A stretch of DNA of 64,000 nucleotides from NCBI GenBank assembly GCA_977020255.1, contig CDROCS010001465.1, positions 186,001 through 250,000 of the forward strand, given 5' to 3'. Made by a program: the position numbers and the translations under genes. This document shows positions 1 through 32,630 of this stretch, in pieces (position 1 is the first letter of the stretch; the number at the start of each line of letters is the position of its first letter). The DNA is from Obrimoposthia wandeli (lineage: Eukaryota). The notes under the pieces were generated by a model. The model worked only from the letters and a program-made list of their open reading frames with translations. It was not told the DNA's origin and did not search any database.

Positions 1-156
1 GACCCTTACCTCCGCATCCCATCAAGACATGACAAGTCAGAGGAGGTTGTAGATAAATTAGTGTGTAAAAATATGTAGAAATATCTAGAAGCGATTGTAC
101 AATAAGTAGAATTATGTAAAATTCATGTAGAAATTAATTGTCATCATGTATTTAGA

Positions 157-456
157 ATGTCTGAAGAATGCCCAATATGTTTGGAAGATTTAACTGAACG
201 AAGAACAAGACCCGATACCTGCAACCACTTACACCACGAGGAATGTTTATCAAAATGGATCAGAACCTATGGAGAAACTCCCTATCCGACATACCCTCGT
301 TGCCCTGTATGCAGAAGACAATTCACAAAGTTAATCAAAATAGAACCCAACCAAGAGGATGTAGATGTACAGGTGATATTCCGTTGGAAGAATTTGAGAG
401 AATGTTGGTATTATTACTGTCTATCAGAACGACAAAATCCGATTACTTTTGTGTAA
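157..456 (+). CDS. Intronless RING-H2 zinc-finger protein (putative E3 ligase), copy 1, intact
   Basis: CPIC-x13-CNHLHHEEC-LSKW-x14-CPVCR matches the C3H2C3 RING-H2 pattern with the conserved Trp; 99-aa ORF. Confidence 0.85.
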   Translation: MSEECPICLEDLTERRTRPDTCNHLHHEECLSKWIRTYGETPYPTYPRCPVCRRQFTKLIKIEPNQEDVDVQVIFRWKNLRECWYYYCLSERQNPITFV

Positions 457-516
457 ACATCACACAACCACCAGCCCTCAATCGAGCCTAAATTCAACAT
501 CACCCCTCTCACAGCA

Positions 517-822
517 ATGTCTGGAGAATGTTCAATCTGATACGAGAACATCATGAACCTATACACCCAACCCAACATCTGCGACCACCAGTTCCATGTC
601 GAATGCCTCGAGACATGGATCCCAATTGCCAACAGCAACAATCCCCTCGAATACCCAAACTGCCCGATGCGCAGAGCAACCTTCTCGGTGCATTACGTCT
701 ACAACCGGGACAGCCTCCAAGCAGTGGTACCCATTGTACACTGCTGGAAGAACATCTGCGACTGCTGGTGTTCGTTCTGCGTAGAGGAGCGACGCACAGG
801 CCAGCCCAACAGCCAGCAGTAA
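517..822 (+). pseudogene. RING-H2 paralog, copy 2, disrupted
   Basis: ATG 517 reads MSGECSI*YENIMNLYTQPNICDHQFHVECLETW...CPMRR; TGA at 538-540 replaces Cys2 and the last Cys is Arg. Confidence 0.75.
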
Positions 823-1142
823 CCGAAGGTAACTTTCTGACTTAAAACGTGACATTATGAACTACCCCTGTGTATCGCATACCGCGATAAATTAGCTACC
901 ATAATTGTAATCATAATTGTATAATCTTGTGAAACTGTAAAATGACCATTACCATTTTTATGTATGTTGTTTATTTGAAATTGTAATTATTATACTGAAA
1001 CTCCAAAAGACAATTTTTTATGCTTAGTATGAATGTGAAAAACATGCCTAAAATCAAGACAGAACTCGGTAGGATTAAAATGAATATTAATATTAATATT
1101 AAACCAAATCGAACCCCAAATTAAAGAGTAATTATCGTGCAG

Positions 1143-1384
1143 ATGATTTGCTCAATCTGCCTGGAAACAATCCGAGCAGCGTCGGCATCCCCTGCCGGGT
1201 GCCGGCACAAGTTCCACGAACCCTGCCTGTACAAGTGGGCCATGGATCCCTATCCCTATCCGCGGGACACATCACTTGCCCAATGTGCCGCACTCCCTTA
1301 TCCGAATGGGCGCTCCTGTGCCGAAAACGCCTAAAGGGCAACCGCATAATTACCACCTGCATTGGCGGTGAGCATTGTAGATGA
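1143..1384 (+). pseudogene. RING-H2 paralog, copy 3, frameshifted
   Basis: MICSICLE...GCRHKFHEPCLYKW in one frame; continues as HITCPMCRTPL in another frame after about 1260. Confidence 0.75.
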
Positions 1385-1387
1385 TCC

Positions 1388-1663
1388 GTGTGCCTGGCGC
1401 GCCGTCGTGACGCGCAACTCGGCATCCGCAAACGGTGGCGGTCTAGCCGCGACTGCCGCTCGTGGCAGCAGGCCAGACGTCTGTGGATCGGAAATAATCG
1501 TCTGTACGGCTCAGACTTTGAATTAATTGTCGAGAGCCCACATCTGAGCCATGATCAGCAGACGGCCCTATACATCGGGGACATTCCGTCCTTTCCAGAC
1601 CTACCCCTGGAGCAAGTCATGCTCTTTCTGGACGATCAGAACATGCCGAACATAATTGATTAA
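1388..1663 (+). CDS. Unknown GC-rich ORF ending the RING cluster (possibly a fourth, degenerate member)
   Basis: 91-aa ORF starting VCL just after an out-of-frame ATG ATC; same GC-rich style as the RING ORFs. Confidence 0.35.
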   Translation: MCLARRRDAQLGIRKRWRSSRDCRSWQQARRLWIGNNRLYGSDFELIVESPHLSHDQQTALYIGDIPSFPDLPLEQVMLFLDDQNMPNIID

Positions 1664-2050
1664 CATAATCCGTCCCTTTATCCTTGTACTACATTTTTTA
1701 GTTTTGTGTATAGAATACAAAATTGAATAATTCGTGACTGCGTCCGAATTATTCATAAAAATCAATACCGACTTTTGTTAAATATTGGGCATGTTTGATG
1801 AGTTTGAATGCTTGAATTAAGTGGGGATGATTTTTAAAATCAGAAGCTAAAAGGTTATTAAATTAAAATCGATACGTTCCGGGGACGTAACTTTTGTAGA
1901 ACCCCCGAGATATGTTAGGATTAGGATTTGATAAATATTAAATAATTAATCTAATTTATAAAAAAATAAAATCCTTGAAAGCAAGGTTATAAAACTAAAT
2001 AAAAAATAATATTTAAATAAATTGATGAGAGTAAAAGGCAAATTAAATAT

Positions 2051-2090
2051 TTAGGACCTTGAAAGGTCATGTTCAGTGTGTTATATATAA
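2051..2090 (+). promoter_or_regulatory. LTR promoter block with TATA box; homologous block at 3201-3240
   Basis: ttaggaccttgaaaggtcatgttcagtgtg is identical in both LTRs, followed by TTATATATAA (2081-2090) or TTATATGTAA (3231-3240). Confidence 0.55.
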
Positions 2091-2589
2091 GGAGGTTGAA
2101 ATTAAATAAAAGGGCCCCAAAAAAGAGAACACGAGAATTAAACGAATTAGAAGAATTAAAGAAGAAATCAAAAAAGAAATCTTGTAATTATTGCCGTTAA
2201 ATTGGACGAAGAAGAAATCTTACAATTATTATCGTGGGATCCAGAACAGTTGCAGCGAAGTCGTCAATTCCCACATCAAAAGTAAGCGGAATTAATTAGT
2301 GAATTAACTGACATCTAATTGACAGTTCCCACAGAATCACAATTCTTCGCAGCCAGCAACAATCTACATCGTGATCGAGAGATTGACGGGATCAGCAGAA
2401 TCTTGCACGCCAAATACCAGAAGTAACATTCGCAACCAATTAGAGGAGGTAAAAAATTTACATATATAGAAACTGAAATTACCACTATCTGCAGTCACCA
2501 CACAAATTGTTCAAGAGAAGCAGCAGTTCAACCAAGCAGTTTTCCTCTCGACAATTTCGAGAGTCGTTAGAAGCTTCCCGTCTTGTAGT

Positions 2590-2745
2590 TCGTCAATACA
2601 GCAGTTCGTCAATACAGCAGTTCGTCAACCAAGCAGTTCGTCAATACAGCAGTTCGTCAACCAAGCAGTTCGTCAACACAGCAGTTCGCCAACACAGCAG
2701 TTCGCCAACACAGCAGTTCAACTCAGCAGTTCAACCAAGCAGTTG
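2590..2745. repeat. ~15-bp degenerate tandem repeat (cagcagttcgtcaa..)
   Basis: About 10 adjacent units; explains the spurious ORF 2507-2746. Confidence 0.85.
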
Positions 2746-2936
2746 ATCGCACACAAATTGTTCGAGAGCAGAAGAAACTAGGAGGTAAATCACGAAAATT
2801 TCCAACATAATTATTCGAATTATTAGAAAAGATTCGGATCGAGCACATCTGTCCGACAACTCTCTACTGCGCTACCGACCCAGCAATCGGACAGTGCATC
2901 TCGCAGGATTCTATACTCGGAATTTTAAATTGGAGG

Positions 2937-3060
2937 TAAGCCGAAAAGTAGTGTGATTTCAGTGAATTTAAAGCCGAAAAGTAGTGTGATTTCATTGAAT
3001 TTTAAAGTAGAAAAGTAGTGTGATTTCATTGAATTTTAAAGTAGAAAAGTAGTGTGATTT
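2937..3060. repeat. ~33-bp tandem array, left part (aaagccgaaaagtagtgtgatttcattgaattt)
   Basis: About 4 units; the array resumes at 5859 after the solo LTR. Confidence 0.9.
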
Positions 3061-3899
3061 TGTTAGAATTAGGATTTGATAAAATTATAAATAATTCATC
3101 TAATTTATATAAAAAGAAAATCCTTGAAAGCAAGGTTATAGATTAAATAAAATTTATATTGATAGATTGAATAGATGAAATTAAAAGGTAAATTAAATAT
3201 TTAGGACCTTGAAAGGTCATGTTCAGTGTGTTATATGTAAGGAAGTTAAAGTTGAGTTAAAGGACCCAAAGAATTAATTAAGAAACGGAAGAAGAACAAG
3301 CCCAGTGTGAGTCACCCAAGGAATCAGGGTAATATTAGCAGTTGGCTGAATTATTCATAAAGTATTTAAGGCCAACAGTCAGAAATCAGCAGCAACGGTA
3401 AATTTCAGTGTGAGTCACCCAAAGAATCGAGGTCAACAGTCAGAAATCAGCAGCAACGGTAAATATCGTGGGAGCCCAGCCGGATTAATCAAACGGCATC
3501 AAAGTAAGTAAAGGTCATTAGTAAGATAACTGTCATATTTGGACAGAATACACAGCGCCGCAACAAGTTCCCACAGTGTCGCAGAAGCAATCAGCAAGCA
3601 GTTATATCGATTACTTCATCATCGCGCCAACTAGCATCGGGCCAGCAACGAGAAACTAATCTCCACACACCAATCAGTCGCGCCAGCAGAACCAGATCAG
3701 GAGACAACTGAAAAGGTAAAATTATCAATACACACAAACTAAATTACCGCTATCCACAGTGCGAACCAGCAGAATCAGATCAGGAGAATTGTCGCTGAAC
3801 CAATTGAAAACGGGAGACAACTGACGAGGTAATTTAATATAAAGCCAAACACACTTACCGTTATTCGCAGTCGCCACAATTGTAGAAGTTGAAATCAGA

Positions 3900-4240
3900 G
3901 AAGAAGCAGTCGCCACATTAGAGAAGAAATTGTCTGCAGCAGTTGATCGCCACATTCGAGAAGAGGAAATTGTCTGCAGTTGATCGCCAAAATTCGAGAA
4001 GAGGAAATTGTCTGCAGTTGATCGCCAAATTTGAGAAGAAGAAATTGTCTACAGTTGATCGCCAAATTTGAGAAGAAGAAATTGTCTGCAGTTGATCGCC
4101 AACACACCAATTCCAAGAAGCAGTGGTCGCCAATTCCGAGAAGCAGATCGTCAATAGCAGTTCGCCAATTCCGGGAAGTAGATCGTCAATAGCAGTTTGC
4201 AGTTCGCAGTTCGCAGTTCGCAGTTCGCAGTTCGCAGTAC
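3900..4240. repeat. ~33-bp degenerate repeat (gaaattgtctgcagttgatcgcc) followed by a (gcagttc)n heptamer run
   Basis: Visible tandem units. Confidence 0.8.
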
Positions 4241-4504
4241 GATTACACGCCAGTAAGAAATCAGTGGAAATTCAGGAGCCCGTGAATCCGAGCAATCTCG
4301 GAGAACGTAAACGAAAAATCAAGAGCTCAGCGAATCCCGGTGACCGTGGACGACAGCAGAACTATCGGACATCTACAATCTCAGCGGAAGATAGATTCAT
4401 TTGAATATTGTGAGTAAAAAGTAATCAGGACATATTTTACTAAAGTTTAAATTACAAAGCGTTCCCAGGCATCGACACGCGAAGCAGAAAGTCAGAGAAG
4501 AAAT

Positions 4505-4608
4505 CAATCTCACTGATCAATCTCACTGATTAATCTCGCTGATCAATCTCGCTGATCAATATCACTGATCAATCCCGCTGATCAATCCCGCTGATCAATC
4601 TCGCTGAT
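4505..4608. repeat. 13-bp tandem repeat (atcaatctcgctg)
   Basis: About 8 units. Confidence 0.85.
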
Positions 4609-4715
4609 CGGACAACGTGAGGAGCCAAGACAGGAGATTCGAATCCGGATTTTGTGGACTTATCGTGGTATTGGGAAGAGGTAAGAAAGTGTACAAGCGG
4701 AATACAAAATATTGA

Positions 4716-5420
4716 TAAAAGATTGTATTTTATTGAAGTTTAAATTACAAGGCGTGAAAAAACTGAGTATATTTTATTGAAGTTTAATTTACAAAGCGTA
4801 AAAGACCGAGTGTGGTTTATTGAAGTTTAAATTGCAAAGCGTAAAAACCGAGTATATTTTATTGAAGTTAAATTGCAAAGCGTAAAAACCGAGTATATTT
4901 TATTGAAGTTAAATTGCAAAGCGTAAAAAAAAACCGAGTGTATTTTATTGAAGTTTAGTTTACAAAGCGTGAAAAACCGAATATATTTTATTGAAGTTTA
5001 AATTACAAAGCGTTAAAAACCGAGTATATTTTATTGAAGTTTAAATTACAAAGCGTGAAGACCGATTGTATTTTATTTAAATTTAAATCACAAAGTGTGA
5101 AAGACCGATTATATTTTATTGAAGTTTAAACTGCATAGCGTGGAAAACCGAGTATATTTTATTGAAGTTTAAATTACAAGGCGTGGAAAACCGAATATAT
5201 TTTATTGAAGTTTAAATTACAAAGCGTTAAAAACCGAGTATATTTTATTGAAGTTTAAATTACAAAGCGTGAAGACCGATTGTATTTTATTTAAATTTAA
5301 ATCACAAAGTGTGAAAGACCGATTATATTTTATTGAAGTTTAAATTACAAAGCGTGAAAAAACCGATTATATTTTATTAAAGTTTAAATTACAAAACGTA
5401 AAAGACCGATTATATTTACT
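4716..5420. repeat. ~43-bp minisatellite (ttttattgaagtttaaattacaaagcgtgaaaaaccgagtata), about 16-17 units with a 5-unit higher-order duplication
   Basis: Units read directly; a variant block starting about 4971 recurs about 5186. Confidence 0.9.
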
Positions 5421-5858
5421 AAAGCGTTTTCCCTACTTTTTAGAGCAATAAGCTCTCCCAAAATCTACCACCTAAAACCTTGTCGGTTTTAGAGAAAAGA
5501 CTCTAATAAACTAACTAAACCTAAAGTAAAATCGATACGTGGTTCATCCCCACTTGTGTAGAGACTTACAGAAGTCTTAGGAATTTTATTGTATTATTTT
5601 AGAAAATACGTACGTAAACGTATTGTTTCGTTTTAGTCTAGTGTGTTAACAATAAACGATTTCCTACATTAGAAAGCATTGTTCTAAACCCTTCAGATTA
5701 AGAGACATCAAAACAAACACCTTCAGATAAGCAATTGAGACAGGCAACCATAACATTAAGTAGGCCACGACCAACTTTAAGACCTGCTTCTATAGAACTC
5801 ACGTTGGGGCCCGCCGCATTCAAGAGGATCTATAAAGTTTCATATAGAAACCCCAACA

Positions 5859-6116
5859 ATTTCATTGAATTTTAAAGTAAAAAAGTAGTGTTGAATTCAT
5901 TGAATTTAAAGCCGAAAGGTAGTGTGATTTCATTGAATTTTAAAGTAAAAAGTAGTGTGATTTCATTGAATTTTAAAGTAAAAAAGTAGTGTTGATTTCA
6001 TTGAATCTAAAGCCGAAAAGTAGTGTGATTTCATTGAATCTAAAGCCGAAAAGTAGTGTGATTTCATTGAATTTTAAAGTAAAAAGTAGTGTGATTTCAT
6101 TGAATTTTAAAGTAAA
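5859..6116. repeat. ~33-bp tandem array, right part
   Basis: About 8 units of the same monomer as 2937-3060. Confidence 0.9.
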
Positions 6117-9100
6117 AAAGAAATTGAAATTGTTATTGAATAAAATTGGATTGCCCATAATTACGTTGAATTTCCCGAAATTGTATTGAGATTACCCCAC
6201 AATTGAAATTGGATTGTTCCGCATTTTGCCTAAATTAGAGCAACAACTCTACTGAACTTCATCCCGTGTTAGAGCAACAGCTAGGTAAACCACTTGTACT
6301 TTAGAGCAACGCTCTGCGAACTTGCCGCAATTTTAGAGTAAAGACTCTAGCGCCAACCAACCCTAAACCTAAAATCGATACGTGGTTCATCCCCACTTGT
6401 GTAGAGACTTACGGAAGTCTTAGGAATTTTACTGTAACTTTTTAGAAATACGTACTTAAACTTATTAATTCGTGTTAGTCTAGTGTGTTAATAAATAAAC
6501 GATTTCCTACAACTAGAAAGCATTGTTCTAAAACCCTTCAGATAAAGACACAACAAAAAACCTTCAGATAATAATTGAGACAGGCAAGCATAACATTAAG
6601 TAGGCCACAACCACCTTAAGACCTGCTTCTATAGAACTCACGTTGGGGCCCTCCACATTCAAAAGGATCTATATTAGAAACAGTGTTTTCATATAGAAAC
6701 CCCAACAATATATTAAAATTCTAAATTAAATAAAATACACATGATACATAATAACCTAGATACATTGACCTAATTAAAATTATATAATACATTATTTTAA
6801 TCAAATGACTTTTGTTTAAATAATACAAATTTGAAATTGATGTATTTAAACAAAATGTATTTTTAATGTATAGTTGCAACTTAAATGCAGTACGGGACAC
6901 CTTTATGATGAATAGATCCTTTGTTTCATACATAGAAATAACCTTGAGGTAGTGTTATAGTATTCATTGTGATTTAGTATTAATTGTGGCATTGCTAATG
7001 TTATGAGTAAATGGCAAATTAGCAATGGACTGCATAATGTACATATTTAAGTTATTAATCACATAATCTGTGATAATGCAATATACAATGTTGAATGAAT
7101 CACTGGTGAAATTATTACTTGCACTGCATGTCATAACACATTGAAATGATGAGAAGACGCAAATATTTCTGAAATTGTGATATGTTCCATAAAGGCCTTA
7201 TACGGATAATATAGATATGTTACTTGAACTTCAATACTCGAGGGCCACCCTTAAATATTATCCAATTATAATAATCTTTTGCACAGTATTTTGTTTTCAT
7301 AGGTGGCATATATTGGTGGGTGGCAGAAGTTTAATTCAAACTTTCAATTTTAAGGGCCACCCTACTACACACACGAAATAATCTTGATGTACCCTTTAGT
7401 GAAGACTGCACGTTAATACGAACTTTAGATAAAAATATATATAGTTCGAAAATATGTTATTAAAAATAGAATAACAAAGATCAAAGGCATCGATGAGTCA
7501 CAAAATTTAAGCACAAAGACATGACTCATTGGGGGTGGCTTTGTGCCAGAAGTGCTATATTCCCTACTATTGTTAAATTTGCTTCAGCTGTGAAATAGTA
7601 ATTCACATAAGCATACCAAGGGTTTTTCTCAAAACCAAATCTCTGCTGCCTTTTATAAACGGGCCATTTCCATTCGGCTGGTTTCTATCAGATAGAACCG
7701 TTTCAATAACATCATTGAGCAAATATTCAACGTACAAACGAAATTGGTAATTATTTCATTATTTGCATTACATCAACACATAAAACTGAGTTTTTTACTC
7801 CAGACTGCGGGTCTTATACAGCTTGCACAAAACAAGTACACTTTTTGTAACTTTGTAAGTTAGATTCAGATAGTACTAACAAAAAAACGTTTCGCACGAT
7901 CATAAAAAGAACTCAGTGAAATTTTAGTATATGATAAACATAATATATTGAAATTTTAAAAATGTTGTTTTAGCTGGTATTTATTTATAATAAAAAAGTT
8001 ATATGTATTAAATATTTATAAAATAAATTTTATGATTTGGTTTAATTGAAATAATTTAAATCCAAAAATTTAAGTGCATTAGTTGAAATAATGTTACGAA
8101 TTTCAAAATCCAATAGGAATTTGGTAAGGTTTTATTTTAAACTAATAACAATTTAATATTTCATTAAATTCATTTTTATTTGGTATTTATTCATATATTC
8201 ACGTTAGTGTTTCTATAATTTAATATATTTAAACACATTTATAAATTTATCACATAAATATTTCTTTCGATAACTTTTTATATACTTAAAACTAGCAGAT
8301 AATGAAATTACTTTTATATGTATAATTCATTTCAGAATTTTTATACAAATTGTGAAATCCTAATTTTTATGACACCTAAAGTACGTTTCCTTGTAAGTTT
8401 AAATTTTTTTAACCTAATATGAATTTATTGTTAATATATAGTTGTCAATATGAATTTGTGATAAGTTTTATTGTATTTCTTTAAAATTAAAGTCCAAATA
8501 AAAACAATTTTTAGATTTCACCTTCATTATTTAGTTTTTTATTTTAATTAAAATTAAGGAATAATTGTGAAAAAATTATAAATTTCCAATAAGTTCAATA
8601 AAAATCTTATTAATTATCATTCGGAAAATCCAGTTAAAATTTCTATGCACAAAATTTTATTTTTTTGTTATAAATAGTTAACTTACTAAGTTCCTCTTAG
8701 TAAGTTCATCAAAATTGTGCTCTAATCGGAATTTAACATCAATTACGGATATTCATTTAGTAAATTTCTGATTCTAACTTATTAATGTAAAATAGGTGTA
8801 TCAGCAATGGCCAATAAATAATCAGTTAAAAGTGCATTAACAAACCTCGGATCAAATGGCCAATTAAATGCTCAATTAGGCGATTCAGTAATTTTGCTGA
8901 ATCACGTTTTACTCTAATAAAATTGTACTTTAATGTACATTTTATCAATTATTATATTCCGAATAATACTAAATAATAATAAAAATATTGTATTCAGTAT
9001 AATATAAATATTATTGACAAAAAAGGTAAATTTGGCAAACATTGTTGAGTAATTTTCTCTTTTTATTCATGTATATGATATTTTATCACAAATTCACTTA

Positions 9101-10652: not shown

Positions 10653-11435
10653 CTGAACATAAAGTATGTTATAAATTTCATAAACAGTAACTTTTTTTCT
10701 AATCAGTGCTGATTAAATATTTTGCGTGATCAGAATTTTAAATTCAAACTGACTAATTGTCATCAAAGATTTTTAGATTTGTTATGCACTCATTTATGTG
10801 GCATTTAAATTTGGTATCGTGTTTAATTGGTTATGAAACCGTTAATAATAATAATCAGGATTAATATCTAATAAATATGCAATCTAATTCAGAGAGACTA
10901 ATTATAATAATTCTAAACAGACAGTTTTAAAGCTTTGGATGTTTTATACACTGATCAAAATGTAACACAAAATCTGCCTTACATATGTAAAAGCGATTTA
11001 GAAAATACGGATTTACATTCAGTTAAATAATATTTCTAATCCGTTTAATATTACCAATGAATCTATAATCAATTCAATACAAAACAGACATTTAAAGAAC
11101 ATGAACATATTTTGCTACAGTACGCTTTGAAATGCAATGCATATATTTTCTTAACTTTCTAAAATATTTCATCTCTGTTGAAGGATTTTATATTAAATGC
11201 TCATAGGGTGTAAAGTTATCTTAAGTTATTGGACCTTTGATTACAATTTTCATTTTTTTTAATTTCAGAACAATAAATATTGAACTTATTGTTTTGTTTT
11301 TTTAATTTATATAATTATGTTTTTTTTCATTCAAGTTTTCTACAACTGGTAATAAATAAAATTTACTTTTATGTAATTCTTTATAATTAATTTTAAAATT
11401 TTATTTTTGCATAAATTTTATCATTGGACATTAGT

Positions 11436-11600
11436 ATCAACTTTAATGAAAGAGCTAGGAAATAAATGTTAAATTAAATTATCATTTTCAAGTCCATATA
11501 ATCATTCAAGTAATGGCAAGTCGAAAGACAATTTCAGACAATCAAAGATTTATTAAACTTAACAATGAAATATAAATGCTCAGAAATTAGGCTTACGTTC
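11436..11600. repeat. 165-bp perfect inverted repeat, left arm
   Basis: Exact reverse complement of 12912-13076 on base-by-base reading. Confidence 0.9.
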
Positions 11601-12559: not shown

Positions 12560-13000
12560 TTAATTCTTTATTTTTTCCTTTACATCTTTCAATGAGCAAT
12601 TTTATTTTGAAAGTCATATCATGTATTTTCTCTATTATGACTCCAGTACCCTCCTATCGATTATCATCATAATTTAGAACATCTATTTTTACAAATACTC
12701 CATTGCTAATATCAAATTTTTGATAATTATTTTCTTTGAAGTTACTTTCATTCTTTTGATTAATTCTGTTCTTGTACGTTTTATGTGTTTGCGTCTCTTT
12801 CTTTATCTTCAAACCATTCAAAAGCAATTTTACTTCCAAATATTATTTCAGTTGGAATTATACTTTTTGTTGCTTCTACAGTAGTATTTATAGAAAATTC
12901 TATTTCTGGAAGAACGTAAGCCTAATTTCTGAGCATTTATATTTCATTGTTAAGTTTAATAAATCTTTGATTGTCTGAAATTGTCTTTCGACTTGCCATT
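12560..13000 (-). pseudogene. Degenerate Ty3/Gypsy integrase C-terminal remnant
   Basis: Minus strand reads AYVLPEIEFSINTTVEATKSIIPTEIIFG...KFDISNGVFVKIDV..DDNR*EGTGVIIEKIH, with several stops. Confidence 0.55.
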
Positions 13001-13076
13001 ACTTGAATGATTATATGGACTTGAAAATGATAATTTAATTTAACATTTATTTCCTAGCTCTTTCATTAAAGTTGAT
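12912..13076. repeat. 165-bp perfect inverted repeat, right arm
   Basis: Exact reverse complement of 11436-11600. Confidence 0.9.
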
Positions 13077-13273
13077 TCAAATTATTTTTTCTAGATCACA
13101 ATGTATTTATATAAATATGAGTATCTAAACCTATTTTATACTGATTCAAATAAATTGTCTCTGAAATCTGTATCACATCTACCTTTCTCGCTAAATGCAC
13201 GCAAACTTTTTAATACAATATAATATAAAATAAAAGCCTTTTAATTAGTAAAATATTTATTTTTTGGTTGTCT

Positions 13274-20916: not shown

Positions 20917-21627
20917 TAAAGTAAATTGATATTTTGGTTTAAGTGGAGAGGTTAATGAAAAACGATTATGTGACAAGTATTATGTTATTTTTAATAGTGG
21001 TTATAAAGCTTAGTAAAAAAGATGTTGGAAAGTTTTATTTAACTCAATTACTTTAAAGTAAAATCATCGCATAAAAGTTAAATAAAACTATTTTTAAAGT
21101 CATACAAGTGACAATTTGATATTACAAAAATATGTATTCTAACTCCCGACACTGGACTAATTGTTTTAAACTATTTTTAGCGCCGAAAACTGGAAATAGC
21201 TTTTTCATTATATTAAAATTGCGAATAACTTATTTTAACATTTATTTAAATTTAAAATTGAATATAACTGCCTCTTAAAGCTTATTGAATCTAAAATATG
21301 CCGCCATTTTAAAATAAAGATATCTAAAATTGCATATAAAATTAAAAAAATAAACATTAAAATTGAGAAAAATTACAGATGTGTTTTAAATAAAAAATAT
21401 ATAATTAAAGATTAATAATTTATAATGTAAATTAGCAGAATTCAGAATTTACGTCTTGTTTATTCAATGTTGATGAATTTCTGGAGCTTAGATTTTTTTC
21501 AGTGTTAAAAGATTAGCGACCGAGTTATTGACTCTGTAGTACGACTAAACTCGTGTCTAAATTGGCCATCAAATGTCATAAAGCAAGCATATAAAAGCTG
21601 ACTTACTTGTGCGACTGGTCATCTGAC

Positions 21628-22202
21628 ATGATGCTGATCTGGTGCTCGTGGTGGTGGTGCAGTTCTATGCTGCTGATACTAATGCTTGCCACAGGCTGCC
21701 TGTGGCACCTGCTAGTTCGCTATCAAGACCCCCCGGGACCACTGGGATGGCCGTTGCTAGGCTGTGTGCCGGGACGCCTGGTCGGCTGGCTGCTGGGACA
21801 CCAATACTGCCAGGCGGAGTTCTACGCTGACACAAGAGCCCGGTATGGCAGCATGTGGTCGCGCCGCATCTTGGGTCTGCGTGAGGTGGGTATTGCTTCG
21901 CTGGACTTGCTGGTCGAGGCTGCCCCATGCATGGCCAACAGGCCGCAGCTGGCCATCCTCGACTTCATGAGCAAGGCAGGTGGCATCATATTCCTGGGCG
22001 GCCCAGTCTGGCACGAGCACCGCCGCTGTGTCCTGCGCTCTCTGACAGAGCTGACGCGCCGCAAACATGGCTACCGTGAGCTTGTCTCCGACCAGGCCGC
22101 CCTTATTGTGACCCGACTGGGTCGCACGCAGGGTCGACTCGTGGAGCCAGATAGCATATTTGCACCCTCCGTTATGCATGTCATCAGCGCTATAATCTCC
22201 AG
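21628..22202 (+). CDS. Cytochrome P450, exon 1 (clan-2-like by inference)
   Basis: Hydrophobic N-terminal anchor, PPGP motif, C-helix WHEHR; donor AG|GTTGGC (phase 2). Confidence 0.9.
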
Positions 22203-22906
22203 GTTGGCTTTAGTCGTAATTATCGGCAACAACTTCACATTTTGTGTGTGAGTGGAGATATGGAAAACTTTATAATTCCTGTAACTTCAACGACGGTCAG
22301 AGGATGTTACTTGTAGAATATCGTATTGTTAGGTTCCAGAGAAAATTAGTTGCCATAACCGGGAATTGAACCTCTATTCTCACTATTTGCACGTCGCACA
22401 TTATATCACTGAACTACCGCAGCTACCGAATCTTTAAGAAAGTTATTAATATTATCTCATAATTATATGCACCTCTTTCATATTTAAAAAAATCATTGAG
22501 AATAATTTTTTTTTATCTTACACATTAGACTTTAATAGTCGAACAACTTTATAAAATATATACAAACTGTGAATGCGGTATTCCCCATTCATAACAGAAC
22601 ACGCATATTTCGATCATACGATGTTTATTATAAAGCGTTATGAAAATCGATCTAAAGTAGTTTCAAAGAGCAGATTTATTTCAGAAACAAAGTGTATTAT
22701 CTGATAAATAACTCGTTGAAGATATGAAATTTATACTAGGACACCACAAGAGAGAATATAATGCATCATTTGAAGAATTTTAATGCATTAGCAATTTAAT
22801 TTTTATTTATTATAAGTAACATATAAAATAGTAATATTTTCTTTACTATGGAAGCTCATTTGACCAAATTAGATTATGGATAAAGTAAAATAAATGGATA
22901 TATATA

Positions 22907-24084
22907 CAGGGTGCGGATGTTTCAGATCCAAATTTCCTAAAATTTAATTTGCATTTGTTTAAAATGAGTAAACGTGAGGCCATCATTCAACTTCATTGCG
23001 CGGGAAAGACAAACCCAGAGATTGTTAAGATCTTAAAAGCTCCAAAATCAACAGTTCGGGATGCAGTAAACCGATACAAAGAACTTGGGACATCAGACGA
23101 TCGTCCCAGAAGTGGACGCCCCCGAACTGCTCGCACCCCAGCCAAAATAAAGGCAGTTAGGGAGCGAATAAGGAGGAACCCCAAACGAAGAATGAGGAAA
23201 ATGGCCAAGGACTTCAAAGTTGACGAAAAAACTGTCAGAACAATTGTCAAAGATGATCTCAAGTTATCCCCTTTCAAGATGACCAACAGACAACAACTGA
23301 CAGAATTGCTAAAACAGAAGAGGGTCGAAAGAGTCAAGATTCTCCTGAACCGAAAGAAGGATGGCACGGATGCTGGGGTAATTGTCTTTTCTGATGAAAA
23401 AATGTTCACTGTTGAGGCCCAGTTCAACTCGCAGAACGACAGAATTTTAGCTAAGAGTGCTGATAGCATTCCCAGTTCGGTAAAATCCGTTTACCGTCGC
23501 CAAAAACTTAGCTCGGTAATGGAGAATTGGAGATCCTCTCTCATTTTTGTTAAAGAGGGTGCCAAAGTTAACGCAAACTCGTACATCCAGGATATTTTGA
23601 CTCCAGCCCATGTTGAAATGAAGAAACATTTCAAAAATGACCCTTTCACATTCCAACAGGACGGTGCGCCCTCTCACACTGCGACAAAACTCAGGACTGG
23701 TGTGAGAATCACTTTCCAGCTTTCTGGAGGAAGGAATTGTGGCCTCCTTCATCACCTGACTTGAACCCTCTGGACTTTTGTGTCTGGTCCATCTTGGAGA
23801 GAGAGGCCTGCGCTACAGCCCATGATAATACATAAGCTTTGAAGAAGTCTCTTAAGCGGGAATGGGCCAAAATTCCCCAGGAATTCTTTCGTGCCGCAGT
23901 GAAGAGCTTCAGGGGGAGACTTGAGCGTGTAATTGAAGCCAAAGGCGGCCACATTGAAAAATAGATAGTATAAATGTTAAATAGAGCTCTAACAAATTGT
24001 GTGTGTTATTTTTTGTTTAATTTCAACCTTTAGTAGTTGTTCAATTTAACGTTTTATGAGATCGGGGACTTTCTCCGCACCCTG
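22907..24084 (+). mobile_element. Tc1/mariner superfamily, maT (DD37D) transposon
   Basis: TIR CAGGGTGCGGA...TCCGCACCCTG, TA target duplication, 1178 bp, inside P450 intron 1. Confidence 0.9.
22964..23964 (+). pseudogene. DD37D transposase, inactivated
   Basis: HTH, VFSDEK, FQQDGAPSH, then WPPSSPDLNPLD after a 1-nt frameshift near 23690; 37 residues between D2 and D3; premature TAA near 23832. Confidence 0.88.
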
Positions 24085-25032: not shown

Positions 25033-26099
25033 ACATACTATGAAATAATTTTAATATAGTGTCAATTTTATAATAATATAAAATGACTTTTACTCAAAAG
25101 CACTTTCCCATCGGGAACTGTTAGTTATTAGCCATGATACTTTTGAATATGGAAGCCAGTAGGTGAATGTGTCCCGTCTAATCTACCCCCTCCTCACTAG
25201 GGAGCTCCTCTGTTCTTTAAAATCACTAATCTATGGAGGGAAATTGGAGTGTTAAGTATATACATGACCAGAATTGTTTCAAACTGTGATATTCATACAT
25301 TTTCAATTGCACAAGAGCAGTTCACTTGCAGTGGATGGTACAACGGTCAAGGTCGCAAACTGAAATGTGAAGATTAAGCACTTATGATACTTGAATTCTA
25401 TTAAGAGCGTGTTCAAACATGTGTCTATGTTTCTTGGCCTACCATTTAGGTTAGCTGTTGAAATTTCCAATATGTCACGAGCATAAGTCCTCGCGTGTCC
25501 AACTGTTTACCACACTTTACAGAACTTTATTAAAATAAATTATATAAAATAAAAAGTAAAGAGACTTAAAATGCACCCCTCCATTCAGAGAGACAAATGT
25601 ATTGTGAGCCCATTTGAGAATCTCACAGGCTTCCAAACGCCATGAGAGTAGCGATATATGATAATAGTGAGGGTCGCAATAATTTAAAAACATCAAATAT
25701 GAGTTTAAAACGTGAAAAAATTCTAAATATATTGCAGTTTTTTTATGATAACTTTGTATCTGAGATTAGGATAAATTTGTATGAAAAACGGGATTATTAG
25801 GGCAAAATAAGTAGTGGAGGGCCCTTGTTAAAATTCATTATGTGAACTTCGTTTTAGCAAAGTTCACTGACATGATTTATCTTACAGGAAGCTCAAACAT
25901 TCCTTCACCCACATCTTTCCAACTCTTACAAGTTCATATTAATTTATTATCCTTAGATGAGAGGTAATCTTTACCTCATTTTTATATAAATCGTCTATAA
26001 GAGGAAAGTAAAATCTACCTAATATTCTAAGACAGCCGAATCCATATTGTTTACCAACAAAATATGGTAATTCACCATCTTGTTAGCTTTGACTATAAG

Positions 26100-28150
26100 C
26101 TTCAATTTATGCTGTATTCATCATTTCCTTTTTTAAATGTATTATTAAACTTGTCTTGGCTCCGTCTGTGAAATATTATTAATTGTCCGGAATTATATCT
26201 ATTATTCACTTTAATAATGTTTATTAATAAGAAAGCAACTGAAATATACGTTGGTAGATCTATACGAATACCGATGACTTCACAAATTTTAGGTTGACTT
26301 TCCAATATACGTATTGTTCTCAAAAGTGGTACTTGCAGTCCTCTTACACGTATAAATATATAACTAATTAATAGCAATTAAATGATTCGCTTGATTTTAA
26401 AGCTTTTTGGTTTTTACTGTATGGGTTTCAAAAGTATTTCTTGTTAAACCAAAATAAATCCATTTCATATTGATTTTTATCGTAAACGTCGTCTTTCCAT
26501 TATCTGATGTTATATATTTATCTAAATATTCACTAAATTCCTTCATTATAAATTTACTAAAATCAATTTCTTTATCTATTTTATAATATTTTTAAAACTG
26601 TTTCAGTTCCAGTACATTTTTAGTTCTAGTTTTACCTAACAACACGTTTCTACTCGTTACTGCGTAAAACCATATACAAAGATTTCATATTTTATTCGAA
26701 GCTGATATCCAAATAGGATCTGAATAACCATGCCATTTAATCAAGTATTATTTATGTTTACCAGTATCCTTAAATTTTCATATTTTTTGAATATGGAAAA
26801 CGTTAGGTTTACTTGACAATACTTGTAGTTCTTGTTCGTAAATTTACTGTGGATGATATTTTTATCAGCATCTTTAGTAGTATACATTATCGGATTGCCC
26901 TTTTGATCAATTTTACTTATACAAAATATTTCATCGCTCCAATTGTGATAATTTTTAAAATAAATGGAGTACAGCTAATTTTAGAAATTCAAACATATTC
27001 GTTTTTCTTAAATTTTGCCTTTATAATATTTTTTCATTTTTATTCCTGCATATCTAAATATCTACCGGTCTCATTCCCGTATAAATTCTATGTTCAGAGT
27101 GTTATATGTATGTATTATTTTAGGTTAAACTTGGATTCACTATTTTCTTCCTTGTTTTGTGAAATACCTTTTTAATCGATCTCTTAAAGTACGAGTAATT
27201 TTTTATATTTATGCTGGTTTGTACTGCGAAAATACAAAGTAGTGATTTATATTACTTTGTTTAAATAATTATTGAACATGTTGATTCTAAAACCCTTTCC
27301 TAAATAGATTTGCACCTTTTGCGGATTTTCATATTTAAATATTTTTTTAATGGCTTAATGCATATCAATTGAACACTTTGCTTTAACTGGAACTTCTCAA
27401 GCAAATATGCTAAATACATTAATACATGTTAAAATATATTGTATTCCTTATTAATAGTAGAATCTTTAATGCTGTCATTGTTGTCATTCTTTTTTGTTCT
27501 CTTTGTCAATTTTGAAACTCCTGTGTAGCCAATTGTATATTTTTGATTGAACCATATGTTCTCCATTACAACAATTTGAATATGTATAAAATTTTAATTA
27601 AGGTAAAGAATAATTAGCACTCATATCTTTAGGTTATTTCTAAAATAACTGTTTATGTCCGTGTCACGACTATAATACTGCTAATAATTGAAACAACAAC
27701 TGATATTACAACCCTTATAACATGTCCATTCTTTTTAAAAATAATGTTAGATTAGCAATATCTAGAAAAGTTTTTTTTATTTCTTTAATACATTTTTATG
27801 TTTTCCAATTTTTACTCAGCCCAAAACTATATTATACAAAACTTCCAATAAATCAATTACATCAAAAGACGAAAATACTTTAAGAATACTTATTCTCTTA
27901 TGTGTAGAAGCCTTGATCAAAGCTTTCAAATATGGTGTGCATTTTTGTACTTTCATAATTTAAAAATTAAAATTCATGTTTAATATTGTTTATAATCGAA
28001 TTCCTTTATATTTTCGTTTAGTTCGAACTACAGACTTGATTAATTTGTTCACTTCTTTTTTCTTGCTGTTTATTTTTTAGCTCTCTTAATGGGTATTGCC
28101 GTTTAAGTTTTATAATTATTATATGTCGGTTTAAAAACTGTTTCTTCATT
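26100..28150 (-). pseudogene. Decayed second Polinton fragment: core-protein ORF, integrase and minor capsid
   Basis: Reverse-strand similarity to 36850-39400 (e.g. gtaatggagaacatatggttcaatc..ttggctacacaggag; VPLLRTI..IDLPTYISVA). Confidence 0.8.
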
Positions 28151-29588
28151 AAAATTAAATAAATCCGTTAAAACACGTAAATCCTCAGGGCATTTTTAAA
28201 AGATTATATAAATCTAACCTACATATTTTTGTCATTCACTTACTCATATTATACATCAGAAATGTAGTTATTTATTGAGACAAAAATCTCATTTAAAATC
28301 TCGTCAACGGCAAGTCGATACTGACGAGGTCAATATAGTTATCTGTATTCCTGTAGTCTTATTTTATTACCCTGGAGGGCAGTTGTGAAATCCATACACA
28401 CAAGTATGGAATTCCACTCCATATACACATGCACTATTTTAAAGGACAGAGGTGCTTCCTAGGGATGAATTAGACTGGACACATACACCTTCTATTGTAT
28501 CATCTTTTACCACTCTCTTCAAATGGTCAGAAATAATGCATTCAATATTATTATCCCCATTGGCAGATATCGTGGCAACTTGTACAATTTCTTCTTTGAA
28601 ATTTGTCTTGGCATAGACTTCACACTTTGACCAAAATTGTCTACATCCACCATATGGAAATCTTGGGCTAACAATACCCTACGATATTCTGAAATTTGTC
28701 TTTCTTATTCAATGTGTTTGACCACTGTAACATCTGTTAGTATATGTATTCCAACTAATATAGCTGAACGAGCTTCAGAACTAAATTTCACACCATTTGA
28801 TTACAATGATGACAACCACACCCTGCTACCATTGTCAATTCTTATTTTATTAAACATCACAACTTATTCACAACTTACATAATTGTTTTATTTTTTGATA
28901 ATTACATTATGTCGTATTTTTATGTAGCCATACATTATTACACACATCATCACAACAAAGCACTTAAAGTGAATTTTTCTGCTTTTACCCAATTGATCAA
29001 TTCAAAATTTGCATCCATTGCTGACTAAGCGAATTAGCTTATGAACGATAATTAACGGTAACTAATTACCACCAACGTATTTCGTTACAGAGAAAAACAA
29101 TTAATTTAGCCATCCCTAGTTGGCATATCATGCTTCAAAGGCCATTAGCTTCAAAACGTTTATTTACTCTTTACAGTTTACTGTCTTTTTTATCATATGA
29201 TAATATCAGTCGCAAAAATTGAACAAAAATCCAAAGAATTACAAAGAACACACAAAGAAAGCAGACTGGAATACGCTAGAGCTAGAAAAACAGAAAAGTA
29301 AAATGTTGTTTGAAGAGTTGAAAAAACAATATAAATTAAATGATTACGACGGTAATATTTTTTTATTTGCAAGATGAAGGATGAGAAAATAGTTTCAAAG
29401 AGACCATATGTCGGAGGTTCAATAATAATAAGGATCATGCATTTATGCGTCACAAAATTTTCAGCTCTTTTGTGTTCATCCACAATTCACTGTCAGTGAC
29501 GCACGTTGAGTATCATTGGTGAAAATGACTAGATATAATAAGTGATCAAGTATGACAAGAATATATGTAATTATACAAATATATTCAG

Positions 29589-29749
29589 ATATGGCGCACC
29601 TGCTTCGATCTGTGGAGTGCCGGAGTGGACACTACGACGCATGTGTTGTGCTGGTGCACGCTTCAACTCGCCGTGCGGCCCGATTTACAGACTCAACTGC
29701 GAAACTGTGTGCTGCCTTTGCGTCGAGTCGACGATGACGAACCGCTCCA
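29589..29749 (+). CDS. Cytochrome P450, exon 3 (I-helix)
   Basis: attcag|ATA..., encodes IWRTCFDLWSAGVDTTTHVLCW; donor CA|GTGAGT (phase 2). Confidence 0.9.
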
Positions 29750-30381
29750 GTGAGTTCTTTGTCTTCAGCATCTAGCCAGATAGGTGAGCTTTGTTACATT
29801 TCGCCACTATGAAATATAATTGCTGATGTTCCATGGCTAAATTCATTCTCTGCTGAGGCTATCTGAATTTCTGTATCTTTTGATCGATTAAGTCAACTAG
29901 TCTTGGTATACACTCTTTGTTAAATATATATTAACAGTGTCTTTGTGTACAGTTCCATGATAAAGTTCTTATAGCCACTATTCAAGCTTCCAAATTCTGT
30001 AAACTTTCAATCTTGGTACTCATCGCAAACTGGTGATAAAACTGAAAAATAAATTTCCCCTTGATAATTATCAAAATTTAGAATACGTTCATCTTCTAAG
30101 CGGAAGTCAGTCGAGTGAAATTTATATAATAATAAGCCTTTGTCTCTAAGACTCTACAGTTTATATCGACCATTGTGCTGTTGTTAAAAATGAAAATCAA
30201 ATTTATATTTATTTGATATCAATCGAATTTTCACAGATCACATATCATTTAATTTGTAATTAAACCTTTTACTTTAAGTTATTTTCTAATGTACATCTAT
30301 CCCCTTAAGTATGTACGTTTACTACAACAATGTCTGCCACTTACTCGCGCATATATACTAACTAACTATTGCTTCATATCA

Positions 30382-30830
30382 AGTAGTATATAGTTTAGTT
30401 TCTGGAATAGTGTCACAAAGCACCCTCCCTCGGGGTGACGGGGCTTTCTGACACCTTTCCAGGAACAATACTATATGCCTTAGAATATGTCTATATAGTA
30501 ATTTTGGTCATAAACACACTAAAATCACTCAAACACACCCAAAATGACTCATAAGGTCTTGAAATCGTGCGTACTGCCTCTTTTGAAATTTGTGGTAATA
30601 TGCATGATTTCAAAACTTGGAAAAAAAATAGTTTCGAAATCGTGTATACTGCCACCCTCTCCTTTTAGTTTTCGTCAGCATTGCGGCAGCATGCACGATT
30701 TCAAGATTTTAAAAAAATGCGCCATAACTATTTTTGCAGTTTAAATGATATATTTTAAAAAGTGACCAAAGCCTTCCTTACGGAGCTTCCTAAAAGAGGA
30801 GCCCTGCATGGCCGGGTTAAACCTTTGTAA
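30382..30830 (+). mobile_element. Polinton-type terminus (AGTAGT...) with internal hairpin
   Basis: 5'-AGTAGT start; 37-nt imperfect inverted arms at 30388-30424 and 30440-30476; motifs shared with 24770-25032; no partner TIR found. Confidence 0.55.
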
Positions 30831-31245
30831 TGATTATTTTAAATATACTTTTGTTTATAGTAAAAGACAACGAAAACTATCAATATTTATTAAACTTTCT
30901 TTTGTCCTTCTGTAATTTTCCATGTATGCTTCAGTTTCCCGAGCTCATCAACTTTGAACACTCGAATTTGTATGAATAAAATCCAATATTTGCATTTGGG
31001 AAACTCTTCTTGAGATAAATTATAGATTCCAGAGAATAAATTTTCATAATCTTTATTGAAAACACTGAAATTTTAAATTTTGATATTCAATTTCATACCT
31101 TTGAAAATAGCATTAAGATGATTTATATCCGTATCAAACTTGGATTATGTTAGCATGACAGTGTGTTGAAATTCCTAGGTTCCAGGTAACTTGAAGAAAT
31201 TCATCGAATAATTGAAGTAAGGTACCACTTCACTAAACAAGTTTT

Positions 31246-32164
31246 GGATCAGGTCAATTTGCCACCCCGATGTATAAATACATAATTATAGAATTATAGT
31301 AAAAAAAAATTTAATAAATAAAATAATCTCAATCAACACATTTATTTCACATTATTTTGAATAAATTCAAAAAACATTCAATATTTCCCTTTCCATTCCA
31401 ATCGTACCACAAAAATTCAGTGAGAAAGTCTTCATGACCTAAACGAATAGGATTAAAAAGAAAATAATTACTCATCATCTTAATAGCCAGTTTTTTGATT
31501 TTTATCATAACAGGTTTACTAATACTGACATAGTTCATTATTTCAGTACTTTTCAAACCCGTTTGATAAGTGAATCAAAACCTTGAGAATTGTTCTAAGT
31601 GATAGTGTGAAATTATGGAACCATGACCCATTCTTCACTGATAAAGTGGTTTGGTAGGAAGCACATCTACCATTCATGCACCTCCACTGGTAACAGTCAT
31701 TTGACTTTGTTGTAGGCTTCAAATCACAAGCCTGACTGCATTGATTGCAATTCATTTCACCTTTTATTATTTCTTTTTGAATTAGAAATAACAGCAATGC
31801 TTTATCATCGTAAGTCTCTACGATTGTGATCATTTCACCAATATTCATTATAGGGATATAAAAAAAATTAATTAAAAAATTATGGATTTAATACAACGCA
31901 TGTACCATACATTATAAACAAGCTTTTTATTATTTTAAATTGTTATTCAGATCATACTTTTTTTAAAAATTATAATAATCTAGCTTTTTATTATTTTAAA
32001 TTGTTATTCAGATCATACTTTTTTTAAAAATTATAATAATCTAAAATAGCATATATTATAATAATATGATAATTTATACAATAAATATTTGATTTCGTGT
32101 TGTTTTGTTTAAAAATGATCAGGTCAATTTGGCACCCCGTTGGGGTGCCAAATTTACTTGATCC
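31246..32164 (-). mobile_element. Merlin (IS1016/IS1595-related) DNA transposon, internal-deletion derivative
   Basis: Termini GGATCAGGTCAATTTGCCACCCC / GGGGTGCCAAATTTACTTGATCC; 8-bp TSD CAAGTTTT at 31238-31245 and 32165-32172. Confidence 0.8.
31347..31848 (-). pseudogene. Merlin transposase remnant (N-terminal zinc ribbon and C-terminus; catalytic core missing)
   Basis: CNQC..C..YQWRC..C..LSVKNGSWF; frameshift; NPIRLG joined directly to EFLWYD. Confidence 0.7.
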
Positions 32165-32408
32165 CAAGTTTTCACTAAAAATATCTTCTAATTCTGTATC
32201 ATCAGAATCCATATATATTGTGCTATTGAGAACCTTGATCGCATTCAAAACTCCCTTCTTCTTCTTCGTCACTCCGCTCTTCAAAGTTTGTTTTTGTAAA
32301 TTGAACTGAAATATTTTGTTAGTTATAGTTGACTATTTGAATCTGATTGGTAGCTGATACTTATTGGATAATATGAAACTATATATTTCCGTGACATCAT
32401 TAATTATA

Positions 32409-32630
32409 ATGAAAATAATCGATATAAATTATAAAGATAAAGTTAAGGGAAGTGTTATTCACTTACTTTTTTCATCAAAGAAACCTTTACAATATGTTGA
32501 AAAGTTAAAAGATTATACTATAGTTATATTTCCATCAAATATTATTATTATTCTTATTATTATTACTATTGAGGTTCATGTAGGATTATGGGTTGCAAAC
32601 AACCAATCAAACATGTCAAGAATATAGAAA
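32409..32630 (+). pseudogene. Second, degenerate TBP-like gene copy from a related Polinton
   Basis: MKIIDINYK...PLQYVEKLKDYTIVIFPS, then an AT-rich insert, then SCRIMGCKQPI; colinear with 35293-35500. Confidence 0.6.

What the first reader, a model, noticed from the sequence alone, without database searches (positions are those of the whole stretch)
157..1663. Tandem battery of intronless RING-H2 ORFs immediately upstream of a large LTR
Seen: three (perhaps four) short, diverged, intronless RING-H2 genes in one orientation, ending about 250 bp before an LTR. Copy 1 is intact; copies 2 and 3 carry single lesions. Established: RING-H2 domains are E3 ubiquitin ligases, and DNA viruses use RING E3s to destroy host defence proteins. 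Inference: these are accessory cargo in the 3' internal region (env position) of a large Gypsy-like retroelement, forming a multi-ligase counter-defence cassette. Giant planarian LTR elements with accessory ORFs (Burro) are known, but I cannot verify any relationship.
Basis: partly seen in the sequence, partly recalled or inferred. Interest (0 to 1): 0.7.

Follow-up and report, generated by a model that had tools for sequence, protein, structure and literature searches.

The report
Repeat-borne array of small ubiquitin ligases
A decaying copy of a highly repeated jumping-gene-like element in an animal genome carries three small ubiquitin-ligase (RING) genes just before its long terminal repeat, each with its own splice acceptor, which suggests a retrotransposon with virus-style accessory genes whose targets are unknown.

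Summary
The RING array is real: three + strand RING-H2 ORFs (ATG 157, 517, 1143); no fourth. Copy 1 is open; copies 2 and 3 carry two lesions each, not one. Each ATG lies 0-2 nt behind a YAG acceptor (background 77 of 1080 ATGs). The '4.8-kb LTR' is a 2.0-kb TG..CA LTR holding a nested 2.8-kb sibling LTR with a 4-bp duplication. Its + strand splice donors (8 vs 0) make it most likely a 3' LTR. Contigs of one sample show RING1/2 and the LTR ends to be very repetitive (hundreds of loci at least), RING3 about 50-fold rarer, and the RING2 stop private to this copy. One diverged copy bridges the pre-LTR/LTR junction. RING1 models as a canonical E2-binding RING. No orthologue was found; the nearest look-alikes are small giant-virus RING proteins. 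Not shown: gag-pol, a 5' LTR, RING-LTR linkage in other copies, expression, host taxon, any target. A polypurine tract is missing. Best reading: spliced accessory E3 genes at the 3' end of an LTR retroelement (0.62). Counter-defence is inference only; a Burro link is unsupported.

The parts
1..78 (+). end of an upstream reading frame (25 codons to a stop), cut by the window edge; identity unknown; high-copy
   Evidence: frame 1; bin 1-250 has 626k summed depth in X1
153..155 (+). candidate splice acceptor (TAG) ending 1 nt before the RING1 ATG
157..456 (+). RING1: open 99-aa ORF; C3H2C3 RING-H2 (residues 5-52) with Arg after the last Cys, plus C-terminal W-K-N..C-W..C..E-R motif
512..514 (+). 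candidate splice acceptor (CAG behind a pyrimidine tract) ending 2 nt before the RING2 ATG
517..822 (+). RING2: paralogue of RING1, broken in this copy (stop at 538-540, private to the copy; eighth ligand absent)
829..836 (+). candidate splice donor just behind the RING2 stop
1140..1142 (+). candidate splice acceptor (CAG) directly before the RING3 ATG
1143..1663 (+). RING3: RING-H2 ORF with a frame break near 1265-1272 and an in-frame stop at 1382-1384; tail to 1663 unresolved; block carried by a minority of copies
1664..1912 (+). pre-LTR untranslated stretch: no purine tract; structured; 12-nt inverted match (1819-1830) and 14-19-nt direct match (1859-1877) to the LTR 3' part
1913..6707 (+). 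outer LTR (TG..CA, 1993 bp without the insert): TATATAA at 2084, AATAAA at 2105, several splice donors; read as the 3' LTR
   Evidence: end point table 8
3061..5858 (+). nested sibling solo LTR (2798 bp, TG..CA) with ATTT on both sides, inside the outer LTR's 33/34-bp tandem repeat; 85-86% identical to the outer LTR at both ends

Best explanation
The three ORFs are accessory genes in the 3' internal region of a large, very abundant LTR retroelement, and 1913-6707 is its 3' LTR (with a later nested solo LTR of a sister family). SHOWN: RING-H2 ORFs; repeat nature; LTR anatomy and polarity; acceptor-like YAG before each ATG; a canonical E2-docking surface in a model. INFERRED: the LTR promoter makes an RNA whose leader exons are spliced to alternative acceptors, giving one short mRNA per RING gene that ends at the poly(A) signal of the 3' LTR. 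Spliced-leader trans-splicing would fit the same signals. Each protein is a minimal monomeric E3: the RING recruits a host Ubc4/UbcH5-type E2 and the short Cys/Trp C-terminal motif picks a substrate. RING1+RING2 are the family's core; RING3 is a subfamily module. This locus is a dead copy decaying after insertion. Most likely purpose (my estimate, about 0.4 within this reading): removing or disabling a host factor that silences or restricts the element. Alternatives are turnover of the element's own Gag/particles, or control of apoptosis. Whether the element is autonomous and Gypsy-type is open.
For: Repeat: summed contig depth 300-626k over 1-1000 against 8 for an exact single-locus contig (X1); floor about 470-670 loci at places 540 and 444 (depth is not a copy number). 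The RING2 stop is private: 99.2-99.7% of depth reads another letter in 4 of 4 runs, one sample. LTR: TG..CA ends, sibling with a 4-bp duplication; four + strand contigs start at 6707 with 11-44 unmatched letters to the left (records 21, 22, 29, 30). Junction: X2 record 12 spans 1804-1944 with 17 other letters and 8 gaps, so a diverged copy shares the pre-LTR/LTR join. Polarity: AGGTAA 8 on + and 0 on - (expected 1.8; 0 of 200 shuffles reach 8), 42-46-nt GT..AG units, A-rich + strand. Acceptors: 3 of 3 ATGs, background 77 of 1080, joint p about 4e-4, post hoc. Paralogy: RING1/RING2 C-terminal parts align above 1000 of 1000 shuffles. E3 surface: AlphaFold2 pLDDT 84-96 over residues 1-60; Foldseek hits are RING E3s. 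With yeast Ubc4: score 0.68, best control 0.02; mark reached by 51 of 78 solved and 2 of 108 mismatched pairs (eukaryotes 71 of 105, 2 of 126); runs agree in at least 94% of contacts, partner pLDDT at least 81. This is a textbook pair, so the pass shows likeness only. Precedent for spliced 3' accessory ORFs in animal LTR elements: PMC5408684.
Against: No gag, pol or 5' LTR could be seen. No purine-rich PPT before 1913 (purine share 0.5 in 20 nt). No listed contig links RING1/2 to the LTR in another copy; depth between them (1251-1750) is 2-3% of the RING1 bin and loose ends lie at 1077-1081. The outer LTR's flanks AGATA/ATATA match at 4 of 5 bases, so a solo LTR with a mutated 5-bp duplication is not strictly excluded. 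AATAAA is over-represented on the - strand of the LTR (17 vs 4.2 expected, 0 of 200 shuffles; probably from the 43-bp tandem array, not tested) but not on +. All read evidence is one sample, probably the window's own. No dN/dS. The C-terminal motif of RING3 aligns only weakly (19 and 99 of 1000 shuffles). The tree neither shows nor excludes one origin of the three RINGs.
Confidence: 0.62

Rival explanations
1. RING1-RING2 belong to another abundant mobile element (DNA transposon, Helitron, Maverick/adintovirus or an endogenised large DNA virus fragment). Only this subfamily joins them to the LTR family's 3' end.
For: Depth trough at 1251-1750 and loose ends near 1080. Nearest Atlas clusters are small Nucleocytoviricota RING proteins (0.94). 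Maverick-like polB/ATPase/integrase remnants lie at about 25-45 kb.
Against: No blastn or tblastx match between 1-1912 and the rest of the window. The acceptors and + polarity match the LTR. RING1/2 depth is of the same order as the LTR's conserved end. No viral contig has the C-terminal motif.
Confidence: 0.15
2. Non-autonomous LTR derivative whose only intact genes are the RINGs, mobilised in trans. The RINGs may serve the helper element or be passengers.
For: Very high copy number; odd pre-LTR signals instead of a PPT; nothing of gag-pol seen.
Against: An upstream frame ends at 78, so other coding sequence may lie to the left. The window edge, not absence, hides it.
Confidence: 0.12
3. The element runs on the - strand: 1913-6707 is the 5' LTR and the RING ORFs are antisense genes in the leader.
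For: No PPT on +. A G5 run follows the LTR on the - strand; AATAAA excess on -; one donor-like site on - at position 9.
Against: Donor bias 8:0 for +, A-rich + strand, TATA 170 nt inside the + start. No TGG-type primer site next to the LTR on - (the TGG rule is recalled).
Confidence: 0.06
4. Amplified host RING gene family or retrocopies without present function, into which an LTR inserted by chance.
For: RING style resembles RING+PHD host proteins among the hits (P0029, P0095). Near-match of a 5-bp duplication.
Against: Hundreds of loci or more. The stop is private and other copies are open there. A second copy bridges the LTR junction. No skip joint 1912-to-6708 among the 15 joints shown, 188 not shown. 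No orthologue.
Confidence: 0.05

Closest known systems
Bdelloid rotifer LTR retrotransposons (Vesta, Juno, TelKA) with non-env ORF3 (PMC5408684; section 3.3 and passages read)
   Same: Family-specific accessory ORF between pol and the 3' LTR; ORF3s are said to be typically expressed from spliced messages; gained and lost between subfamilies.
   Different: Cargo there is GDSL esterase, DEDDy exonuclease, TM/coiled-coil or env; 'ubiquitin', 'zinc' and 'C3HC4' occur 0 times in the main text. Here there are two to three paralogous RING E3s, each with its own acceptor.
Burro/GYPSM1 giant gypsy elements of planarians (PMC6431247, section 7 read whole; Grohme 2018 not held)
   Same: Large LTR element, thousands of copies, cargo tied to ubiquitination and apoptosis (MATH/TRAF, Ubi/SUMO-like, BIR, BCL2, an AIR1 motif annotated 'RING Zn-finger').
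   Different: Burro cargo is inside the 4,873-aa ORF1 or an upstream accessory ORF, and env lies between gag and pol. Here the genes are stand-alone 100-aa ORFs at the 3' end. No sequence or host link was shown.
Small stand-alone RING proteins of large DNA viruses (Nucleocytoviricota, iridovirus, baculovirus, nudivirus, ICP0 class)
   Same: Minimal intronless RING plus short tail; top Atlas clusters and BFVD fold hits.
   Different: No hit shares the C-terminal motif; best identity 42% over 65 columns; the context is an LTR, not a DNA virus.
Accessory genes of complex retroviruses (HIV Vif/Vpu/Vpr; recalled, no call)
   Same: Several short 3' genes, each reached by its own splice acceptor, working through the ubiquitin system.
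   Different: Those proteins are adaptors for host cullin ligases; these encode the RING itself, and no env or infectivity is shown.

Membership tests
RING-H2 E3 ligase | C3H2C3 ligand pattern and cross-brace fold | tested here: met
   Copy 1: all eight ligands, Pfam above cut-off, RING fold. Copy 3 only across its frame break. Copy 2 lacks two ligands in this copy.
RING-H2 E3 ligase | E2-binding surface (Ile7, Trp34, Pro50, Arg53 in RING1) | tested here: met
   0.68 vs best control 0.02; textbook pair, likeness only
RING-H2 E3 ligase | ubiquitin transfer activity | not testable with these tools
   needs an assay
LTR retrotransposon | TG..CA terminal repeat, multi-copy | tested here: met
LTR retrotransposon | 4-6-bp target-site duplication | tested here: inconclusive
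   met for the nested sibling (ATTT); the whole element's left end is outside the window
LTR retrotransposon | polypurine tract directly before the 3' LTR | tested here: not met
   purine share 0.5 in the last 20 nt; a C5 run instead
LTR retrotransposon | second (5') LTR with primer-binding site | not testable with these tools
   window starts inside the element; no genome held
Ty3/gypsy (Metaviridae) | gag and pol in PR-RT-RH-IN order | not testable with these tools
   not in window; no RT motif in six frames
Burro elements | planarian host, >30 kb, cargo in a giant ORF1 polyprotein | not testable with these tools
   organism coded; host not determined; the RINGs here are stand-alone ORFs
Maverick/adintovirus accessory gene | linkage to polB, integrase and ATPase genes within terminal inverted repeats | tested here: not met
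   next to an LTR; no similarity to the Maverick-like remnants of the window; left side unseen
conserved single-copy host gene | low copy number, orthologues elsewhere | tested here: not met
   no orthologue

The most novel reading that the evidence does not exclude
An invertebrate LTR retrotransposon family, present in hundreds to thousands of copies, behaves like a complex retrovirus. It expresses a modular, swappable array of its own RING E3 ligases from alternatively spliced short mRNAs to destroy host silencing or restriction proteins (for example piRNA-pathway factors), and it primes plus-strand synthesis without a polypurine tract.
Probability: 0.22. Interest if true: 0.78.

Novelty: new variant of a known kind. 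Interest (0 to 1): 0.5.

Why it matters
Accessory ORFs in animal LTR elements are known, but I found no description of stand-alone, paralogous RING E3 genes with individual splice acceptors in one (searches; open-licence library only, so Repbase and subscription papers are unseen). If these ligases are active, a non-infectious genomic parasite brings its own protein-degradation tools, as DNA viruses do. The substrates would then point directly to the host's anti-transposon factors, and the high copy number makes selection tests easy once the assembly is at hand.

Tried and rejected
Own genome: none held, so no leftward extension, copy census or dN/dS. Expression: no RNA holder listed. Homologues: word-indexed search of RING1 found no candidate (lengths 54-174 only). 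A profile against 1.84 billion representatives gave 1024 hits at E<=0.001, all generic RINGs among the 150 shown; none has the C-terminal motif. 37 of the 150 were scanned with Pfam: no RT, integrase or gag family among the best 5 families shown per protein. Best extended match P0072 (38% over 72 aa) has no further relatives. Viral contigs: one generic giant-virus RING locus. The C-terminal motif had no confirmed relative in viral (0 of 239 candidates) or metagenome contigs (0 of 229), and no Atlas hit at 0.9. LTR motif scans: 0 matches. Rfam: 0; tRNA: 0. RING tree of 96 rows (93 of 150 hits kept by coverage and score) is unresolved, 64 of 93 branches open. Host taxon via the P450 exon: only CYP2-like, hence animal. 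Fourth RING rejected. A tyrosine-recombinase (DIRS/Ngaro) reading was considered because of the inverted 12-nt match; set aside because the sibling has TG..CA ends and a 4-bp duplication (criteria recalled). Earlier scan notes by sequence and place: none. Paper supplements were not opened.

Full report
OBSERVATION. Three RING-H2 frames lie on the + strand. RING1 (157-456) is an open 99-aa ORF with all eight ligands (Pfam zf-RING_2 E 1.5e-10). RING2 (517-822) has an in-frame stop at 538-540, at the second ligand, and lacks the eighth ligand. RING3 starts at 1143, breaks frame near 1265-1272 and meets a stop at 1382-1384. The frame beyond, to 1663, has no Pfam match and is probably its tail. A six-frame scan of all 64 kb found the central RING motif three times only, so there is no fourth copy. 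RING1 and RING2 are paralogues beyond the RING: their C-terminal parts share W-K-N..C-W..C..E-R and beat 1000 of 1000 shuffles; RING3's tail aligns only weakly (19 and 99 of 1000). DNA similarity among the three is limited to short stretches of 24 nt or less.

THE LTR. 1913-6707 begins TG and ends CA, but is two elements. An inner copy (3061-5858, 2798 bp, TG..CA) sits in the outer one's tandem repeat with ATTT on both sides. The outer LTR is 1993 bp, and the two are 85-86% identical at both ends. A 4-bp duplication and TG..CA ends are the marks of a retroviral-type integrase (established knowledge). The outer LTR's flanks give no 4-bp duplication, as expected if it is attached to internal sequence, although they match at 4 of 5 bases. 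Polarity is most likely +. AGGTAA occurs 8 times on + and 0 on - (0 of 200 shuffles reach 8), several donors open 42-46-nt GT..AG units, the + strand is A-rich, and TATATAA (2084) and AATAAA (2105) lie near the + start. Against this, AATAAA is over-represented on - only, and there is no purine tract before 1913. In its place is a structured stretch with direct and inverted matches to the LTR's 3' part; I cannot explain this.

A NEW FEATURE. Each of the three ATGs lies 0-2 nt behind a YAG, in RING2 after a pyrimidine tract. Only 77 of 1080 + strand ATGs of the window do so (joint p about 4e-4; noticed post hoc; 3 other ATGs of the 43 in 1-1912 also qualify). This suggests one spliced mRNA per gene, by cis-splicing to LTR leader exons or by trans-splicing. 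No RNA could be examined.

COPIES. No genome is held. Four runs hold the stretch, all one sample and probably the window's source; their contigs were laid on 1-7500 at 80% likeness. Summed depth in X1 is 300-626k over 1-1000, 63k at 1001-1250, 6-9k over RING3, 117k at 1751-2000, mostly under 3.2k in the LTR middles, and 190-690k at the conserved LTR 3' ends. An exact single-locus contig has depth 8. The tool warns that depth is no copy number. Allowing the maximal 31-fold overcount gives floors of about 470-670 loci at places 540 and 444 (94-190 at three other RING1/2 places) and 34 in RING3. At the RING2 stop, 99.2-99.7% of depth reads another letter in 4 of 4 runs, so the stop is private to this copy. 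Of 440 listed differences 40 were shown. The seven in RING1/2 fall on codon positions 1, 2 and 3 as 2:2:3, as in neutral decay, and two of them change residues in RING1's C-terminal motif. Whether the other lesions are private could not be seen. One diverged contig (X2 record 12, 1804-1944) bridges the pre-LTR/LTR join with 109 and 32 letters on the two sides. Four + strand contigs start at 6707 with unmatched letters to the left, fixing the LTR's right end (32 of 195,218 pieces shown). No listed piece links RING1/2 to the LTR in another copy, and loose ends at 1077-1081 show that many copies continue into other sequence. So RING1+RING2 are the common core, the battery of three is a minority form, and the linkage is shown at this locus only.

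THE PROTEIN. AlphaFold2 gives a confident RING (pLDDT 84-96 over residues 1-60) and a low-confidence C-terminal helix. Foldseek returns TRIM21, RING1B/BMI1 and other E3s (best E 4e-3, none at 0.001) and viral RINGs (10 at E<=0.001). With yeast Ubc4 the model docks Ile7, Trp34, Pro50, Val51 and Arg53 on the E2: score 0.68, best control 0.02; mark reached by 51 of 78 solved and 2 of 108 mismatched pairs; at least 94% contact agreement, partner pLDDT at least 81. This is a textbook pair and may pass from memory. No orthologue was found. The nearest Atlas clusters are 83-124-aa RING proteins of giant viruses (0.93-0.94). Some top sequence hits are tapeworm double-RING proteins or RING+PHD proteins. 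The tree is unresolved, so the origin, host or viral, is open.

MECHANISM. Best reading (0.62): accessory genes at the 3' end of an LTR retroelement, each on its own spliced mRNA, each a minimal E3 using host E2s, with the C-terminal motif as the likely substrate-binding part. Shown: ORFs, repeat status, LTR anatomy, splice-like signals, modelled E2 surface. Inferred: splicing, activity, substrate binding, purpose. Counter-defence is the most natural purpose by analogy with viral RINGs (recalled), but nothing here tests it. Rivals: a separate mobile element joined to the LTR in one subfamily (0.15), a non-autonomous derivative (0.12), opposite polarity (0.06), host gene copies (0.05).

COMPARISON. 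It works like the rotifer LTR elements with family-specific ORF3s, said to be typically expressed from spliced messages (PMC5408684; section 3.3 and passages read), but with different cargo. Burro elements carry ubiquitin- and apoptosis-related domains inside a giant polyprotein or an upstream ORF (PMC6431247, section 7 read whole; the original paper was not held); no link to them is shown. Passages of PMC6338049, PMC10309623, PMC13524379, PMC8502044, PMC11410931, PMC8532177 and bioRxiv 2024.03.25.586562 were searched by term; none of the passages described RING E3 accessory ORFs. Eight literature searches (listings only, apart from the papers named) found no such description, in an open-licence library and without supplements. 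Two unchecked scan notes report a RING inside dinoflagellate copia polyproteins, so RING cargo may recur. Membership in Ty3/gypsy cannot be filed: pol is unseen and the PPT test failed.

VERDICT. A real feature, correctly spotted, with details corrected and one useful addition (an acceptor before each gene). New variant of a known kind; interest 0.5. The bold version, a retrotransposon with a modular spliced E3 arsenal against host silencing, has probability about 0.22 and would merit about 0.78.

Noticed in passing
window 1819-1830 and 1859-1877 vs 5522-5555 and 6370-6398: The pre-LTR stretch holds an inverted 12-nt and a direct 14-19-nt match to two adjacent stretches of the LTR's 3' part (shuffles reaching them: 4 and 0 of 300). 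1700-1930 folds better than 200 of 200 shuffles. A candidate strand-transfer or priming signal in place of a PPT.
   Followed up: partly
window 2449-2494, 3716-3759, 3829-3870 and others in the LTRs: A series of 42-46-nt GT..AG mini-intron-like units inside both LTRs; the LTR may give a multi-exon leader or non-coding RNA.
   Followed up: partly
window 157-453 vs 517-819 and 1143-1660: Third-position GC is 0.35 in RING1 but 0.59-0.72 in RING2 and RING3, hinting at different histories.
   Followed up: no
window 4220-4485: Exact contigs at depth 65-100 (records 4 and 14) against about 8 for a single locus in X1 suggest about a dozen near-identical copies of the inner LTR's middle: a young subfamily.
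   Followed up: no
window 25700-45000: Decayed Maverick/Polinton-like remnants (DNA_pol_B_2, rve integrase + chromodomain, A32-like ATPase); 25739-28192 is a 75-82% identical inverted match to parts of 36670-44739.
   Followed up: no
window 48765-50525 (-), 22889-23764 (+), 21595-22251 (+): An open 586-aa frame that looks like a hAT-type transposase (label recalled; only weak zinc-finger Pfam hits), a Tc1/mariner-like transposase fragment, and a divergent CYP2-like P450 exon.
   Followed up: partly
window 11430-11600 and 12912-13082: 171-bp inverted repeats, 99% identical, enclosing about 1.3 kb of AT-rich DNA: a MITE-like element.
   Followed up: no
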